UHGV virus genome: UHGV-0126733
Strand: one strand, 5' to 3'
Source of the DNA: a virus
DNA: 11,744 nucleotides
This document shows positions 1,603 through 5,785 of this stretch, one piece after another. The translations under genes were made by a program, and so were the position numbers. The notes beneath the pieces are model-generated. The model did no database searches, had not been told where the DNA came from, and worked only from the letters and a program-made list of their open reading frames with translations. Each line of letters starts with the position of its first letter. The stretch's first letter is position 1.

Positions 1603-1652
1603 ATAAAAAATTTATAATAAGTAAAATAATAAAGAAAAATACTCAAAGGCAA

Positions 1653-2207
1653 TTATCTTGACTCAAATACAAATCTAGAAGAGATGAGCTTATCAAGCAT
1701 TTTCATAAGTAAATCCTTACTCTCACCACCATTTATATATTTATTAAAGTTAGACTCGAACTCATGCCAAACTTTTTCTAACTCAGTATTATCAAATAAG
1801 TGCTCTGTCGCAAACCATGAAGACTGGCAACAATCGAAAATACTCAAAAGTTCATCAAATCTTTTAACATTCTCTTCTCCCAACTCAATTTGCTGACTAA
1901 TAAGATCTACATCTTTAAATAGCCATTTCGCAATAACTTGCTCTCGTTCATCATTGAGTTGCTCGGGGTCAATATTGACAGGCATAAATAATAGAGCTGT
2001 CTTTAATTTCTTTAATGCATTCCTAAAATCTATTTTTACTTTTGTTTTCTCTTGTTCCCGCCACGTAAACAATGCCTTGAACGCCAAAAACAAAGTAACA
2101 ATAGTAGCTCCAGCACTCACCCAAGATGCAATCATTGCCCAACAAGCCCACTCAGCAGCAGCACGGTTTGCTACAAGTGTCTCATATGCAATATAATTTT
2201 CGTTCAT
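1653..2207 (-). CDS. Hypothetical membrane-anchored protein; AT-rich cargo gene (moron) between spanins and HNH
   Basis: 184-codon ORF with a GAGG Shine-Dalgarno 5 nt before the ATG. One N-terminal hydrophobic helix (approx. aa 20-45, AEWACWAMIASWVSAGATIVTLFLAFKALF) followed by a charged, helix-rich soluble domain. Very AT-rich relative to flanking phage genes. No family recognised. Confidence 0.6.
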   Translation of the reverse strand: MNENYIAYETLVANRAAAEWACWAMIASWVSAGATIVTLFLAFKALFTWREQEKTKVKIDFRNALKKLKTALLFMPVNIDPEQLNDEREQVIAKWLFKDVDLISQQIELGEENVKRFDELLSIFDCCQSSWFATEHLFDNTELEKVWHEFESNFNKYINGGESKDLLMKMLDKLISSRFVFESR

Positions 2208-2240
2208 TTTTACCTCACTGTTAATAGTGAGAGTATTGTA

Positions 2241-2269
2241 ACTAAAAGCATAATAACTAGAACAGTCAA
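2241..2269 (-). promoter_or_regulatory. Candidate sigma70 promoter for the 1653-2207 cargo gene
   Basis: On the minus strand: TTGACT (complement of 2264-2269), 17-nt spacer, TTTAGT (complement of 2241-2246). A 6-bp hairpin (2214-2231) lies between this and the start codon and includes part of the Shine-Dalgarno. Pattern match only. Confidence 0.3.
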
Positions 2270-2284
2270 ATAATAATATTTCAC

Positions 2285-2629
2285 CTAATGAATATTATTA
2301 TTCAAATGCAGATTGTACTTTTGCTCTCCTAACCTACGAAGATCAGACTTATCACGGTTACATAGCCCCAGTGCTGATAGCAGACTTACATTCAAACTAA
2401 GACTATCCCCATAAGTCAGAGGATTGGGTATAACTGGCTGTGGAGTTTCAGCGAGCAGGTTCGTCGGTAACGGCATCGTTGGAACCTGCACGTATACTGT
2501 CCGCGTACTTCCGCAACCGGTCAGCAGCGACATCAGGCACAGGGCGTGAAGCACAATCATCATCCGCAACAGCCACTTTGATATCTTCCTGGGCTCTCTG
2601 TGACTCCAGTGCGATCTGCTGTTTTGCAT
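2285..2629 (-). CDS. Rz1: Rz1-like outer-membrane lipoprotein spanin (o-spanin), overlapped architecture
   Basis: +1 frame relative to Rz. Lipoprotein signal with lipobox LLTG-C (Cys at codon 100 of the track ORF), followed by a proline-rich mature region (VPTMPLPTNLLAETPQPVIPNPL). Start is ambiguous: ATG at 2629 (GGAGG 9 nt upstream), TTG at 2569 or ATG at 2563. The ORF runs about 160 nt past the Rz stop. Confidence 0.6.
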   Translation of the reverse strand: MQNSRSHWSHREPRKISKWLLRMMIVLHALCLMSLLTGCGSTRTVYVQVPTMPLPTNLLAETPQPVIPNPLTYGDSLSLNVSLLSALGLCNRDKSDLRRLGEQKYNLHLNNNIH

Positions 2630-2840
2630 GCTGGTTAGCCTCCAGAACTGTATTGACGATTTGTAGTGATTGCAGGACGTTATTGGTAATGGCAGTTGCT
2701 GATTCAGCATTTCGTACAGCCTCATCAGCACGTTTCTTTTCGTACTGATATTTGCTGTAGTAGTGGTTGGCCGACCAGATGAAAGAACCAATGACAGTAA
2801 CGAAGAAACCAACGATAACCAGCTTATAGCTCAGCTTCAT
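2448..2840 (-). CDS. Rz: Rz-like inner-membrane spanin (i-spanin)
   Basis: 130 aa with an N-terminal transmembrane helix (KLVIVGFFVTVIGSFIW) followed by SANHY (lambda Rz has AVNHY) and a charged coiled-coil-like periplasmic region. Sits immediately after the endolysin, with a 17-nt overlap, and contains the Rz1 start in another frame. Confidence 0.8.
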   Translation of the reverse strand: MKLSYKLVIVGFFVTVIGSFIWSANHYYSKYQYEKKRADEAVRNAESATAITNNVLQSLQIVNTVLEANQHAKQQIALESQRAQEDIKVAVADDDCASRPVPDVAADRLRKYADSIRAGSNDAVTDEPAR

Positions 2841-3300
2841 TTACCACCCCACCAGCCTCTTTAAACCGGGCAATCAAATCACCGATTTTATGTTCATACT
2901 GACCATAACCTGCACCGGGTAACGACGCCCAGATATTGCTGCAACGGTCGATAGCCTGACGAATATCACCGCGATCAATCATCGGTAAAGCGCCACGCTC
3001 TTTAATCTGTTGCAGTGCCACAGCATCCTGGCTTTTGGGGGAGAAGTCTTTCAGAGCAAGCTGCTTACGGTAGGCATCCCACCAGCGTGAAAGAAGCTGA
3101 TAACGTCCGGCGGCTGTTGATTTGAGTTTGGGGTTTAGCGTGACAAGTTTGCGAGGGTGATCAGAGTAATCAGTAAACAGTTCGCCGCCAACAATAACAT
3201 CATAACCGTGATTACGTGTCGGTTGTCGCCCGTTATCCGTTCCTTCTGACCATGCCACCATATCGAGGAAAGCTTTACGCTGGGAATTTAGTACCTGCAT
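2824..3300 (-). CDS. R: Endolysin, lambda R-like lytic transglycosylase
   Basis: 158 aa; NSQRKAFLDMVAWSEGTDNGRQPTRNHGYDVIVGGELFTDYSDHPRKLVTLNPKLKS... is near-identical in pattern to lambda R as I recall it, including the catalytic Glu in WSEGTD. No N-terminal SAR/TM segment. AAGGAG Shine-Dalgarno 7 nt upstream of the ATG. Confidence 0.9.
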   Translation of the reverse strand: MQVLNSQRKAFLDMVAWSEGTDNGRQPTRNHGYDVIVGGELFTDYSDHPRKLVTLNPKLKSTAAGRYQLLSRWWDAYRKQLALKDFSPKSQDAVALQQIKERGALPMIDRGDIRQAIDRCSNIWASLPGAGYGQYEHKIGDLIARFKEAGGVVNEAEL

Positions 3301-3303
3301 AAA

Positions 3304-3630
3304 TTACTCCTTAGAGCCACCAAACTTATTACCGATTACTCTCATTGCAGCCCCACGAATAGCATCGACCCCGATTAGCCCAACGCCGCCACCAATGGCA
3401 ACAGAAAGAGATTTAGGCCATCCGACATACTCAAGAGCGGATGCAAAAGTCAGCGTCAGAGCACCACAGAGCAAAATCTCGAGCGTTTTTCGTTTCCAGC
3501 CCCCACCACCGCCAAAATATGCAATGCGCAAGCCAGCCATAACAATCGACATAATCACTGCGCCCAGCGGTGTGTCTCCACGCCACCAGCTCTGGACCAA
3601 CTCCAACCAGGTATTTGGGTTATGAGGCAT
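3304..3630 (-). CDS. Putative holin (about 3 TM segments), not lambda S family
   Basis: 108 aa immediately upstream of the endolysin. Three hydrophobic segments (LGAVIMSIVMAGLRIAYF, LEILLCGALTLTFASALEYV, LSVAIGGGVGLIGVDAI), a GGGGG motif and a charged C-terminal tail. The call rests on position and topology; the family is not recognised. Confidence 0.7.
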   Translation of the reverse strand: MPHNPNTWLELVQSWWRGDTPLGAVIMSIVMAGLRIAYFGGGGGWKRKTLEILLCGALTLTFASALEYVGWPKSLSVAIGGGVGLIGVDAIRGAAMRVIGNKFGGSKE

Positions 3631-3803: not shown

Positions 3804-4030
3804 AAGCTGTGTGGCGAAGTGACCACTCTTAACACGATACAATAGTTTTTGCGTACGCGTTAGCATTTTTGATGGAAGTTAATGGTTGTTAATCTTATAC
3901 TCAGTAAACAAAATTTATGCCGCCTTGAGCATGATGCGACATTAGGCACATGTTTGGATCTTCCTCGAAGATTCGTGCGGTAGCTATGCTCAAAATCCAA
4001 TCAGCTCATAAAACATACTATGGGTTTTAA

Positions 4031-4780
4031 ATGCTCATTCCAACATCTCTATCAAAACAACCAGTAATCGAAGCTGCTTTCGAAATGCGTTTTTCTAAAG
4101 AAACACAAATATCGGAAATAGTTCCAGGGTTTCTTTTTCACGCTCTAGGTTGTACAAAACCAGTAATTAGTTTACCACCCAGTCAAATACCTAAAAATGT
4201 TCGTGAGGGAGATGAACAATTACATTACGCAGTTGTCAGTCGCCTCGAAATCGAAGGGTACTATATTGGACTAAGTGACCATGGTGTTGTTGTATCCACC
4301 AGCACCAAATATCAAGGGTGGAGTCATTTTAGAGAAAAAATCATTCATGTATTAAATGAGCTTAACAAATTAAATTTAAATGACAACATCATCCGCTACT
4401 CATTAAAGTATGTAGATTTTTTCCCAAAAGAAGACGATTCTAATTTATTTGATAAGCTAAACGTCAGCTTAAATATGGCTGGCGAGTCTATGTCTAATTA
4501 TCCGATCAATATCAGAATCGATAAAAATGAAGGCGCATTTCTAAATATAATTCAAATATTATCTCATGCTTTAGTCATGTCAGATAATGGAGAATTTAAT
4601 AAAAAAGGACTAATCCTAGACATAGACAGCATTAGGCAAATCACTAATACTGATGAAATAGATAAGTTTAAAAACGAACCCAAAAAAATTCTTGATGATC
4701 TTCACGCCTGTAATAAATTAGCTTTCTTTAGTTGCCTTAAAGAGTCAACAATTCAAGAACTAGAACCATCCTACAAATAG
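4031..4780 (+). CDS. Hypothetical protein, first gene of AT-rich cargo operon (249 aa)
   Basis: Clean ORF, soluble (no signal peptide or TM segment), AT-rich codon usage. First of three co-oriented, tightly spaced genes. No catalytic motif recognised. Confidence 0.65.
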   Translation: MLIPTSLSKQPVIEAAFEMRFSKETQISEIVPGFLFHALGCTKPVISLPPSQIPKNVREGDEQLHYAVVSRLEIEGYYIGLSDHGVVVSTSTKYQGWSHFREKIIHVLNELNKLNLNDNIIRYSLKYVDFFPKEDDSNLFDKLNVSLNMAGESMSNYPINIRIDKNEGAFLNIIQILSHALVMSDNGEFNKKGLILDIDSIRQITNTDEIDKFKNEPKKILDDLHACNKLAFFSCLKESTIQELEPSYK

Positions 4781-4795
4781 AAATGGTGGTATGAT

Positions 4796-5140
4796 ATGTA
4801 TCCGTCTCATCATGTTTATCGAGCTCAACTTCAAGTATTAACTTTGGTTTTATATAGTCTGCATATAACTGCATTAACAGACATTGCCCAAAATCAACAG
4901 CATGGTCCTCAACAAAGTTTAATCGTCAAAAATCACGCTTTGGAGTATAAGTCTTCAACTACCGATTCAGTTCATTCCATCACACAAACATATAAAGCAG
5001 GGAGCACAATCTCAGTTGATCAAAGACTTGCAGTCTCGATGACAAACTTTTATGAAAAATTATCAACAAACCAGGTGTCTTTAGGCAGTGAAATAAATAA
5101 AGTCGTTCATGCTTCACTGTGGGATTTATACTTGGATTAA
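4796..5140 (+). CDS. Hypothetical small protein, second gene of cargo operon (114 aa)
   Basis: GGTGGT Shine-Dalgarno about 6 nt upstream of the ATG. Its stop TAA (5138-5140) directly abuts the GTG/ATG of the next gene, suggesting translational coupling. It fills the 360-bp gap between the flanking genes. No recognisable domain. Confidence 0.45.
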   Translation: MYPSHHVYRAQLQVLTLVLYSLHITALTDIAQNQQHGPQQSLIVKNHALEYKSSTTDSVHSITQTYKAGSTISVDQRLAVSMTNFYEKLSTNQVSLGSEINKVVHASLWDLYLD

Positions 5141-5143
5141 GTG

Positions 5144-5758
5144 ATGAGTAATAACATTTTTGATATCGAGAAATTCAAAGATCAAATTCCATATTATTTA
5201 ACAGCTCCTCAAAAAGAAGGGCTAATAAATGCACTTAGAGATTTCCCTGAAAACACTAACTACTACCTTAGCAATTATCATGATGATCTGAAAAATGCTG
5301 CACTTCAGGGAGATATATTTAAGGAGCTTACAGTATATTCAATTAAAGGGACTAAAAAAACACGAGGCATTATATTAAGCAACAGTTGCGATATAGATAC
5401 AAGTAATAATCGTGATGTGCCAATGCGTGCAGTCTTTGCTCCGTTAGTAAGTTTATCTAAGTTCGAAGCTATTCTTCTCTCCAACGGAGTTTCTAAGACT
5501 TCAATAGATAGCAAAATTGATGCTATAAGGAAGCAGTTAATTACTAATATTTTTTATCTTCCTGAATCAGACAACTTAGAAGAATGCATCGTTTTTCTTG
5601 ATGATGTATACCAATTACCAACGGAAGAATTACAAAAACTCTTGAATGATAAATGCAAAGCCATAACTTTAAGTCAAGTTGGTTTCTACATTTTACTATT
5701 CAAAATATCTATTCACTTTTGTAGATTCCATGAAAACATACAACGATTCGATCATTAA
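5144..5758 (+). CDS. Hypothetical protein, third gene of cargo operon (about 204 aa)
   Basis: ORF starting at ATG 5144 (track uses the GTG at 5141). AT-rich, with a hydrophobic/amphipathic stretch near the C-terminus (VGFYILLFKISIHF). Followed immediately by a terminator. Family not recognised. Confidence 0.6.
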   Translation: MSNNIFDIEKFKDQIPYYLTAPQKEGLINALRDFPENTNYYLSNYHDDLKNAALQGDIFKELTVYSIKGTKKTRGIILSNSCDIDTSNNRDVPMRAVFAPLVSLSKFEAILLSNGVSKTSIDSKIDAIRKQLITNIFYLPESDNLEECIVFLDDVYQLPTEELQKLLNDKCKAITLSQVGFYILLFKISIHFCRFHENIQRFDH

Positions 5759-5785
5759 GGCGGTACTACCGCCTTTTATTATTTT
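5759..5785 (+). terminator. Rho-independent terminator of the cargo operon
   Basis: GGCGGTACTACCGCC hairpin (5759-5773; 6-7 bp GC-rich stem) followed by TTTTATTATTTT (5774-5785). Begins 1 nt after the operon stop codon and overlaps the stop codon of the convergent Q gene. The reverse strand lacks a U-tract, so it is unidirectional. Confidence 0.6.

What the first reader, a model, noticed from the sequence alone, without database searches (positions are those of the whole stretch)
1603..2400. Second AT-rich island: single membrane-anchored protein between spanins and HNH-terminase
The 184-codon ORF at 1653-2207 encodes one N-terminal transmembrane helix plus a charged helical domain. It lies in the slot that lambda uses for bor, between the lysis cassette and the packaging module. 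A sampled line here is about 32% G+C. It has a plausible own promoter (TTGACT-17-TTTAGT) and a strong Shine-Dalgarno, consistent with lysogen-expressed morons. Single-gene, membrane-anchored proteins in such slots are often superinfection-exclusion or abortive-infection factors.
Basis: partly seen in the sequence, partly recalled or inferred. Interest (0 to 1): 0.6.

Follow-up and report, generated by a model that had tools for sequence, protein, structure and literature searches.

The report
Prophage cargo gene, membrane-anchored protein
This is a real, conserved 184-codon gene that some prophages carry as optional cargo between their lysis and DNA-packaging genes; it encodes a small inner-membrane-anchored protein of unknown function that may protect the host from other phages, though nothing here shows that.

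Summary
A 184-codon ORF lies on the minus strand at 1653-2207, in a 25-38% G+C island between Rz/Rz1 and the HNH-terminase genes of an E. coli SfII/SfIV-like prophage. The region is 100% identical to ETEC H10407.

The gene is under purifying selection (dN/dS about 0.08). It belongs to an uncharacterised, Enterobacterales-only family (phrog_6169), with no significant Pfam, NCBIfam, PADLOC or PDB match. The protein has one TM helix, predicted N-out/C-in topology, and a cytoplasmic helical bundle with only generic fold matches.

Only 26 of 5,426 E. coli genomes carry it. Related prophages have this slot empty or filled with other single genes. Homologues sit after the spanin genes in eight of the nine gene arrangements examined, are AT-rich in every host checked, and end in an intrinsic terminator. 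Together these features fit a moron.

The conserved element is TACAAT (2240-2235). It is followed at once by a conserved hairpin (2235-2211) that sequesters the Shine-Dalgarno sequence. This suggests that late-operon read-through transcripts are translationally silent, while transcripts from the gene's own promoter are translated.

A superinfection-exclusion or abortive-infection role is plausible but untested.

The parts
1653..2207 (-). ORF184 coding sequence (184 aa plus stop); member of phrog_6169, function unknown
   Evidence: Purifying selection. Identical to WP_001005132.1 of ETEC H10407.
2079..2138 (-). Codons 24-43: the single transmembrane helix. It is preceded by a conserved acidic 20-residue N-tail and followed by the conserved motif W49-R-x-Q52-E53-K-x-K56
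   Evidence: Hydropathy and K+R counts over 29 family members: N-flank 1.0, C-flank 3.8, giving N-out/C-in. Invariant columns.
1656..2030 (-). Codons about 60-184: predicted cytoplasmic helical bundle, ending in the conserved R-F-V-F
2213..2216 (-). Shine-Dalgarno GAGG
   Evidence: duplex -7.8 kcal/mol.
2211..2235 (-). Hairpin whose 3' arm is the Shine-Dalgarno and whose 5' arm is an anti-SD (CTCACT-attaac-AGTGAG plus an outer stem)
   Evidence: Folding energy -9.1 kcal/mol, z = -4.2. The structure is conserved in homologues: 89% of cells paired against about 40% when the partner is slid. P(SD paired) has a median of 0.98 in the family and 0.58 in 1,322 control ORFs.
2235..2240 (-). Conserved -10-like hexamer TACAAT. 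The T, A, A, A and T positions are invariant in 12 of 12 aligned homologues
   Evidence: Serratia homologues also have a matching -35 (GTGACA-17-TAAAAT, 10 of 12). In the window the -35 is poor.
2241..2269 (-).
   Evidence: The sequence is present. The scan does not list it, and it is not conserved in homologues.
2262..2309 (-). Long hairpin, almost entirely A-U pairs (about 17 bp core), spanning the Rz1 stop codon (2287-2285); role unknown
1603..1652 (-). 50-nt AT-rich spacer between the ORF184 stop and the HNH start. It has no terminator stem, whereas homologues have an intrinsic terminator here
2285..2405 (-). 3' end of Rz1/LysC, lying inside the AT-rich island. The right-hand mosaic junction with related prophages falls at about 2405
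   Evidence: Alignment with E. coli FDAARGOS_1284. Annotation.

Best explanation
ORF184 is a moron, meaning an optional, horizontally exchanged cargo gene sitting in the late operon of a lambdoid prophage.

The protein is a bitopic inner-membrane protein. It has a conserved acidic periplasmic tail of about 20 residues, one TM helix, a conserved basic juxtamembrane motif and a cytoplasmic helical bundle.

Inferred regulation: a weak promoter of its own (-10 TACAAT, 2240-2235) starts transcription at about 2228. That point lies inside the 5' arm of a hairpin that otherwise pairs with the Shine-Dalgarno sequence. Transcripts from this promoter would therefore be translatable, for example in the lysogen. 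Read-through transcripts from the Q-dependent late promoter would carry the whole hairpin and be translated poorly. This is the logic of IS10 'fold-back inhibition'.

Inferred function, the weakest step: in the lysogen the protein acts at the cytoplasmic face of the inner membrane against superinfecting phages, by exclusion or abortive infection. In this view the conserved N-tail and TM module is the constant working part and the cytoplasmic domain is the exchangeable specificity part.

What is shown: the gene, its selection, its cargo status, the predicted topology, and the conserved -10 and hairpin. What is inferred: the start site, the translational insulation and the anti-phage role.
For: Cargo status:
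- The full insert is present in 26 of 5,426 E. coli genomes, while the flanking HNH and Rz sequences occur in 463 to 1,267 genomes.
- Alternative occupants of the same slot are nothing, an unrelated 197-aa TM protein, a GrlR-like protein, a 64-aa ORF, or a 28%-identical family member.
- The gene is 36-41% G+C in all six loci checked, against flanks that are mostly 50-58%.
- Homologues sit between the spanin and TerS genes in phages with at least four holin types and three terminase types. One sits between tail genes.
- Homologues end in an intrinsic terminator.

Regulation:
- The TAnAAT hexamer is invariant and lies 0-5 nt before the anti-SD arm.
- The hairpin is conserved.
- SD pairing is far above that of control genes, Mann-Whitney p = 5e-6.
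- Truncating the RNA at about 2229 reduces the fold to -2.4 kcal/mol.

Protein:
- One TM helix and the positive-inside rule over 29 plus 28 sequences.
- The N-tail, TM helix and 5' leader are shared with a second family (P0013, phrog_16957). Its C-terminal domain is an unrelated beta-sandwich.
- dN/dS is about 0.08.
Against: - No sequence or fold similarity to any known exclusion or defence protein.
- In this window the -35 is poor, there is no terminator, and promoter-like sites are not enriched.
- Covariation in the hairpin is modest, with only 2 pairs changed on both sides. Family members are also not independent samples.
- The position directly after the spanin genes is kept even at 25-35% protein identity. 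That could instead point to a lysis-linked role.
- No expression or phenotype data were found.
Confidence: 0.4

Rival explanations
1. Lysogenic-conversion factor acting on the host rather than on phages. A small inner-membrane protein made in the lysogen would modulate envelope physiology, stress tolerance, signalling or virulence.
For: The same slot in related E. coli prophages carries a GrlR-family T3SS regulator. Lambda's occupant of the equivalent slot, bor, is a serum-resistance lipoprotein (my own knowledge). The moron features are as in the best explanation. The fold resembles the four-helix bundles of sensor kinases, although the matches are generic.
Against: There is no match to any virulence or regulatory family. 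The family occurs across commensal and environmental Enterobacterales, not only in pathogens. Exchange of cytoplasmic domains on a constant TM module is more typical of conflict systems.
Confidence: 0.25
2. Accessory lysis protein. A membrane-anchored regulator, such as an antiholin-like protein, a lysis-timing factor or a spanin modulator, would be made with the late genes and fine-tune host lysis.
For: The gene is always on the late strand. In eight of the nine gene arrangements examined it lies directly after the spanin genes, even at 25-35% identity, and in L071 it starts only 32 nt after Rz. An N-terminal TM helix followed by a charged helical domain is the general build of holins, antiholins and i-spanins (my own knowledge). 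The SD hairpin could act as a timing device.
Against: The gene is absent from the great majority of E. coli prophages that share these same Rz and HNH flanks. It occurs with unrelated holin, endolysin and spanin types. One member lies between tail genes. It has its own conserved -10 and, in homologues, its own terminator. No holin, antiholin or spanin family matches in Pfam or PHROGs. The predicted N-out/C-in topology is the opposite of an i-spanin and of T4 holin T (the T and Rz topologies are my own knowledge).
Confidence: 0.15
3. Selfish or neutral passenger, such as an addiction-type membrane toxin kept silent by the hairpin, with no benefit to host or phage.
For: SD sequestration is typical of toxic small membrane proteins (my own knowledge). 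The gene has a sporadic distribution. No partner gene is conserved next to it.
Against: Strong purifying selection acts over the whole 184 codons across genera. The 135-residue soluble domain is conserved. No antitoxin or antisense promoter is conserved; an antisense promoter-like site occurs only in the window and in one homologue.
Confidence: 0.1

Closest known systems
Lambda bor and other morons of lambdoid late operons (moron as defined in PMC2629481)
   Same: A single accessory gene in the variable slot after Rz/Rz1. Composition is atypical, it is present in some relatives and absent in others, and homologues carry their own promoter element and terminator.
   Different: There is no sequence relation. 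The product is a bitopic inner-membrane protein, not an outer-membrane lipoprotein. It is co-directional with the late operon, whereas bor is transcribed against it (my own knowledge). The copy in this window has no terminator.
P22 SieA superinfection-exclusion protein (PMC10883804)
   Same: A small (162-164 aa) prophage-encoded inner-membrane protein, carried as cargo in the late region and made in the lysogen. It is sufficient on its own to block DNA entry.
   Different: SieA has three predicted TM helices and the motif FxRYPxEAxxFNK. ORF184 has one TM helix, lacks that motif and gives no PHROG or Pfam match. SieA also sits in a different slot, the 'ant moron' before the tailspike gene.
IS10/Tn10 'fold-back inhibition' of transposase translation (Davis, Simons and Kleckner 1985, Cell 43:379; reference seen, content from my own knowledge)
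   Same: A stem whose 5' arm lies upstream of the element's own start site pairs with the ribosome-binding site. Only read-through transcripts from outside are silenced.
   Different: Here this is an inference from the spacing of a conserved -10 and a conserved hairpin. No start site has been mapped, and no conserved antisense RNA equivalent to RNA-OUT is present.
phrog_6169 and phrog_16957 (PHROGs families of unknown function)
   Same: ORF184 matches phrog_6169 end to end (E = 1.3e-74). The sister family phrog_16957 (P0013 type) shares the 5' leader, N-tail and TM helix.
   Different: These are sequence clusters with no known function, so they name the family without explaining it.

Membership tests
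Moron (independently expressed gene inserted in a phage operon) | Present in some and absent in other closely related phages, at the same position in an otherwise syntenic operon | tested here: met
   26 of 5,426 E. coli genomes carry it, against 463 to 1,267 with the flanks. The slot is otherwise empty or holds other genes.
Moron (independently expressed gene inserted in a phage operon) | Composition different from the surrounding phage genes | tested here: met
   25-38% against 54-57% G+C in the window. 36-41% against mostly 50-58% in homologous loci.
Moron (independently expressed gene inserted in a phage operon) | Own promoter | tested here: inconclusive
   A TAnAAT hexamer is conserved at -33 to -28, and Serratia homologues have a matching -35. 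The window's -35 is poor, the scan shows no enrichment, and no start-site data exist.
Moron (independently expressed gene inserted in a phage operon) | Own terminator | tested here: not met
   No terminator lies between the stop (1653) and the HNH start (1602) in the window. Homologues in Citrobacter, Serratia, Klebsiella and Kosakonia do have one.
P22 SieA-type exclusion proteins | Three (or four) TM helices and the cytoplasmic motif FxRYPxEAxxFNK (PMC10883804) | tested here: not met
   ORF184 has one TM helix and the motif is absent from its sequence. PHROGs returned only three families, all of unknown function.
Known anti-phage defence proteins (PADLOC-DB 2.0) | Significant match to a defence-system model | tested here: not met
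   The best hit is CARF_TM at E = 0.021. Across 58 family members there are only scattered single weak hits.
Holins and antiholins | Match to a holin or antiholin family, and a role as the phage's membrane-lesion or timing protein | tested here: not met
   No Pfam or PHROG holin match. The phage already has a lambda-S-type holin at 3304-3630. The functional part could not be tested with these tools.
i-spanin (Rz) | N-in/C-out type II membrane protein with a periplasmic coiled coil and a cognate o-spanin lipoprotein gene embedded or adjacent | tested here: not met
   Predicted topology is N-out/C-in. There is no embedded lipoprotein ORF. Rz and Rz1 are already present at 2285-2840.
SLATT domain (NF033634) | Score above the curated cut-off and two TM helices | tested here: not met
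   16.4 bits against a cut-off of 41, covering only the TM region. The protein has one TM helix.
phrog_6169 | Full-length profile match | tested here: met
   E = 1.3e-74, residues 15-183 on profile positions 2-165 of 165.

The most novel reading that the evidence does not exclude
ORF184 and its sister family would form a previously unrecognised, modular class of single-gene prophage immunity proteins. A constant module (periplasmic N-tail, TM helix and basic juxtamembrane helix) would be fused to interchangeable cytoplasmic domains, either a helical bundle or a beta-sandwich, that recognise different invading phages. The phage's own late transcription would be prevented from making the protein by an IS10-like hairpin that hides the ribosome-binding site in read-through transcripts only.
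Probability: 0.2. Interest if true: 0.65.

Novelty: new member of a known kind. Interest (0 to 1): 0.35.

Why it matters
If the protein proves to exclude or abort other phages, it would add a compact, single-gene, membrane-anchored family to the known prophage immunity functions. The family is restricted to Enterobacterales. A naturally modular build would make specificity easy to study by domain swaps.

The regulatory arrangement is directly testable. It would explain how cargo genes embedded in a strongly transcribed late operon can be kept silent during the phage's own lytic growth. If neither holds, this is one more conserved hypothetical prophage gene.

Tried and rejected
- Protein family searches. 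Pfam, NCBIfam and PADLOC gave nothing significant on the protein or on 58 relatives. The SLATT_1 hit (16 bits), CoV_RPol_N and CTLH are all far below their cut-offs.
- Literature. There were no hits for the protein accession, the PHROG number or the palindrome sequence. Papers citing phage 118970_sal3 gave no functional data. HepS (PMC13043305) is an unrelated HEPN protein.
- Rfam found no family for the leader or for the palindrome.
- Antisense RNA in the manner of IS10 RNA-OUT. A + strand promoter-like site (TTGCTA-18-TATAAT, 2168-2197) is present only in the window and in one homologue, so I dropped the idea.
- 'All cargo genes hide their SD.' By eye many seemed to. A control showed that 56 other cargo ORFs do not differ from 1,322 ordinary ORFs (0.61 against 0.58, p = 0.13). 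The hairpin is specific to this family.
- The 197-aa TM protein occupying the same slot in FDAARGOS_1267 is not a distant relative (hhalign probability 1.8%).
- The upstream 40-nt palindrome is not a LexA, CRP or Fur box by inspection: the half-sites have the wrong orientation or spacing. It is not a classical terminator either, because it generally has no U-run.
- The search for related loci with the broad alignment failed because no stretch was conserved enough.

Full report
WHAT IS THERE. The window is part of a lambdoid prophage with HK97-type head genes, a P27-type small terminase preceded by an HNH gene, and a contractile tail. Bases 1500-2500 are 100% identical to E. coli ETEC H10407 and 97.5% identical to Salmonella phage 118970_sal3. 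All late genes run on the minus strand. They are the lambda-S-type holin (3304-3630), GH24 lysozyme (2824-3300), Rz/DUF2570 (2448-2840) with embedded Rz1 (stop at 2285), the 184-codon ORF (1653-2207), HNH (1252-1602) and TerS (632-1135). G+C falls from 54-57% to 25-38% across 1601-2400.

Comparison with a related prophage that lacks the gene (FDAARGOS_1284) places the left junction right at the HNH start. The right junction falls inside the 3' end of Rz1, at about 2405. The AT-rich island therefore contains the tail of Rz1 as well as the ORF.

THE GENE IS REAL AND BELONGS TO AN UNCHARACTERISED FAMILY. The protein matches phrog_6169 (unknown function) end to end, with E = 1.3e-74. Nothing in Pfam, NCBIfam or PADLOC reaches significance. 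The word-indexed search found 13 clusters, all annotated as hypothetical and all from Enterobacterales: Citrobacter, Enterobacter, Kluyvera, Klebsiella, Kosakonia and Serratia. An exhaustive HMM search of 1.84 billion cluster representatives found 122, many sharing only the first 80 or so residues. A profile search added Pantoea and Leclercia, and again none was named.

Selection is purifying. There are 7 synonymous and 0 non-synonymous differences between the E. coli and Salmonella-phage alleles. dN/dS is 0.07-0.09 at dS of about 0.65-0.75.

THE PROTEIN. There is one hydrophobic helix at about residues 24-43. Over 29 family members the 15 residues before it hold 1.0 Lys+Arg on average and the 15 after it hold 3.8, which predicts N-out/C-in. 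The sister family gives 1.1 against 4.4. Invariant residues cluster just after the membrane (A42, W49, Q52, E53, K56), at P76, and in the C-terminal bundle (W131, E135, Y157). The C-terminus is usually R-F-V-F.

CARGO STATUS. The full insert is in 26 of 5,426 complete E. coli genomes. The flanking HNH and Rz sequences occur in 463 genomes with the 1-kb query and 1,267 with the 1.5-kb query. In related E. coli prophages the Rz1-HNH slot has one of the following contents:
- nothing but about 290 bp of other sequence (FDAARGOS_1284);
- an unrelated 197-aa TM protein;
- a GrlR-family protein;
- a 64-aa ORF;
- in strain 181.1, a 163-aa member of this same family that is only 28% identical to ORF184.

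Where the neighbouring genes carry Pfam annotation, eight distinct gene arrangements were examined, seen in 19 loci. In all of them the gene lies on the late strand between the spanin gene(s) and the small terminase or accessory genes before it. This holds for relatives at 25-35% identity. It also holds in phages with at least four holin families (Phage_holin_3_1, 2_1/2_3, 8 plus 3_7, and unannotated) and with Nu1/gpA, Terminase_2 or P27-type terminases. My own ORF listing of eight more distant viral loci included one exception: in L065 the gene lies between the major tail protein and the tail chaperone and tape-measure genes.

The gene is 36-41% G+C in all six loci checked, against flanks that are mostly 50-58%. 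In Citrobacter, Serratia, Klebsiella and Kosakonia it is followed directly by an intrinsic terminator. The window copy has no terminator, only 50 AT-rich bases before the HNH start.

REGULATORY REGION. However, TTTAGT lacks the A at position 2. The scan does not list it and finds no excess of promoter-like sites. The motif is also not conserved.

An alignment of 12 homologous leaders shows instead an invariant T-A-n-A-A-T. In the window this is TACAAT (2240-2235). In the wider set it lies at -33 to -29 from the ATG in most members. Serratia homologues add a good -35 (GTGACA-17-TAAAAT, 10 of 12). The window's -35 is poor.

Within 0-5 nt of this hexamer begins the 5' arm of a hairpin whose 3' arm is the Shine-Dalgarno sequence. 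In the window the hairpin spans 2235-2211, with an energy of -9.1 kcal/mol and z = -4.2. Across homologues 89% of cells are paired, against 38-47% when the partner is slid. Covariation is modest, with two pairs changed on both sides.

I ran a control of my own. It gave the predicted probability that the SD is paired:
- 18 family members: median 0.98;
- 1,322 ordinary ORFs from the same loci: median 0.58 (p = 5e-6, though family members are not independent);
- 56 other cargo ORFs: not different from the control ORFs.

Sigma-70 transcription normally starts about 7 nt after the -10. The family's own start would then fall inside the 5' arm, at about 2228 in the window. An RNA beginning at 2229 folds at only -2.4 kcal/mol, with the SD free.

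From this I infer, but have not shown, that own-promoter transcripts are translatable and late-operon read-through transcripts are not. This is the logic described for IS10 transposase (Davis, Simons and Kleckner 1985; reference seen, content from my own knowledge). No Rfam family matches. An antisense promoter-like site (2168-2197, + strand) is not conserved.

FUNCTION. Nothing found here identifies it. A defence or exclusion role fits several features: optional prophage cargo, a membrane anchor, domain swapping on a constant module, low G+C, and insulation from the phage's own late expression. There is no homology to SieA (three TM helices and a specific motif, PMC10883804), and none of the three PHROG families hit has a known function. 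No PADLOC model matches.

The persistent position right after the spanin genes keeps a lysis-linked role alive. The sporadic distribution, the variety of lysis cassettes, the tail-region copy and the gene's own -10 and terminator argue against that role. A host-directed conversion function, as for bor or for the GrlR-like occupant of the same slot, cannot be excluded.

My estimates are about 0.8 for the cargo (moron) status, 0.5 for the translational-insulation model and 0.35 for an anti-phage function. For the combined statement as written I give 0.4.

VERDICT. This is a new member of a known kind of element with an uncharacterised protein family. Interest is moderate to low, raised somewhat by the conserved -10 and hairpin arrangement and by the modular family.

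Noticed in passing
L042:5923-5962, L064:5921-5960, L004:4921-4962; phage phi80 NC_021190 44298-44337 (L197:1901-1940); not present in the window: A roughly 40-nt imperfect palindrome, GGCATTACAGCAGGCATTCAcTGAGTGCCTGTGATAATGC, precedes most ORF184 homologues but is not specific to them. It usually begins right after the upstream stop codon. Within about 30-150 nt it is followed by some 65 different small ORFs by N-terminus, including HNH endonucleases, lipoproteins, small membrane proteins and many unknowns. It folds into a 17-20 bp stem, and its 3' arm contains TGnGATAAT, which resembles an extended -10. It generally has no U-run, no Rfam match, no annotation in phage records and no literature hit. 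It may be a generic junction element for cargo genes, acting as a promoter or operator, an RNA-processing site or a recombination linker.
   Followed up: partly
window 3900-5760 (+ strand ORFs 4031-4780, 4796-5140, 5141-5758): A second AT-rich cargo island (29-40% G+C) lies between the Q antiterminator and the holin, on the opposite strand. It holds a 249-aa TIGR04255-family protein (phrog_5464), a 114-aa ORF and a 205-aa protein (phrog_4575), all of unknown function and with no PADLOC match. ETEC H10407 has a KAP-family NTPase in this slot instead. The window therefore comes from a different prophage, even though 1500-2500 is identical.
   Followed up: partly
L075:652-1143 (-), E. coli strain 181.1, NZ_CP059907: The same Rz1-HNH slot in a related E. 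coli prophage holds a 163-aa family member that is only 28% identical to ORF184 and lacks the periplasmic N-tail. Deeply diverged alleles of one family thus alternate at one locus.
   Followed up: partly
L009:5001-5534 (Serratia marcescens), protein P0013: The sister family (phrog_16957) has the same leader, N-tail and TM helix as ORF184 but an unrelated C-terminal beta-sandwich (ApaG-like or Ig-like, pLDDT 88.8). It sits in the same slot between the spanin and terminase genes.
   Followed up: partly
window 2262-2309 (- strand): A long hairpin, almost entirely A-U pairs (about 17 bp core), is centred on the Rz1 stop codon (2287-2285), just upstream of the ORF184 promoter region. Its role is unknown. 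It lies further from the -10 than the GC-containing palindrome of homologues.
   Followed up: no
window 2168-2197 (+ strand): A good sigma-70-like site (TTGCTA-18-TATAAT, 10 of 12) lies antisense to the first codons of ORF184 and points across its start codon and SD. It is present only here and in the K. oxytoca homologue, where it arises from the N-Y-I codons, so it is probably fortuitous.
   Followed up: yes
L010:3863-4147 (K. oxytoca prophage); L069:2668-3186: Cargo genes near ORF184 homologues include an Acb2/Tad1-hairpin (anti-CBASS/anti-Thoeris sponge) gene in the same lysis-terminase array. A KwaA (Kiwa) gene lies in the Q-holin slot. These slots therefore do carry conflict genes.
   Followed up: no
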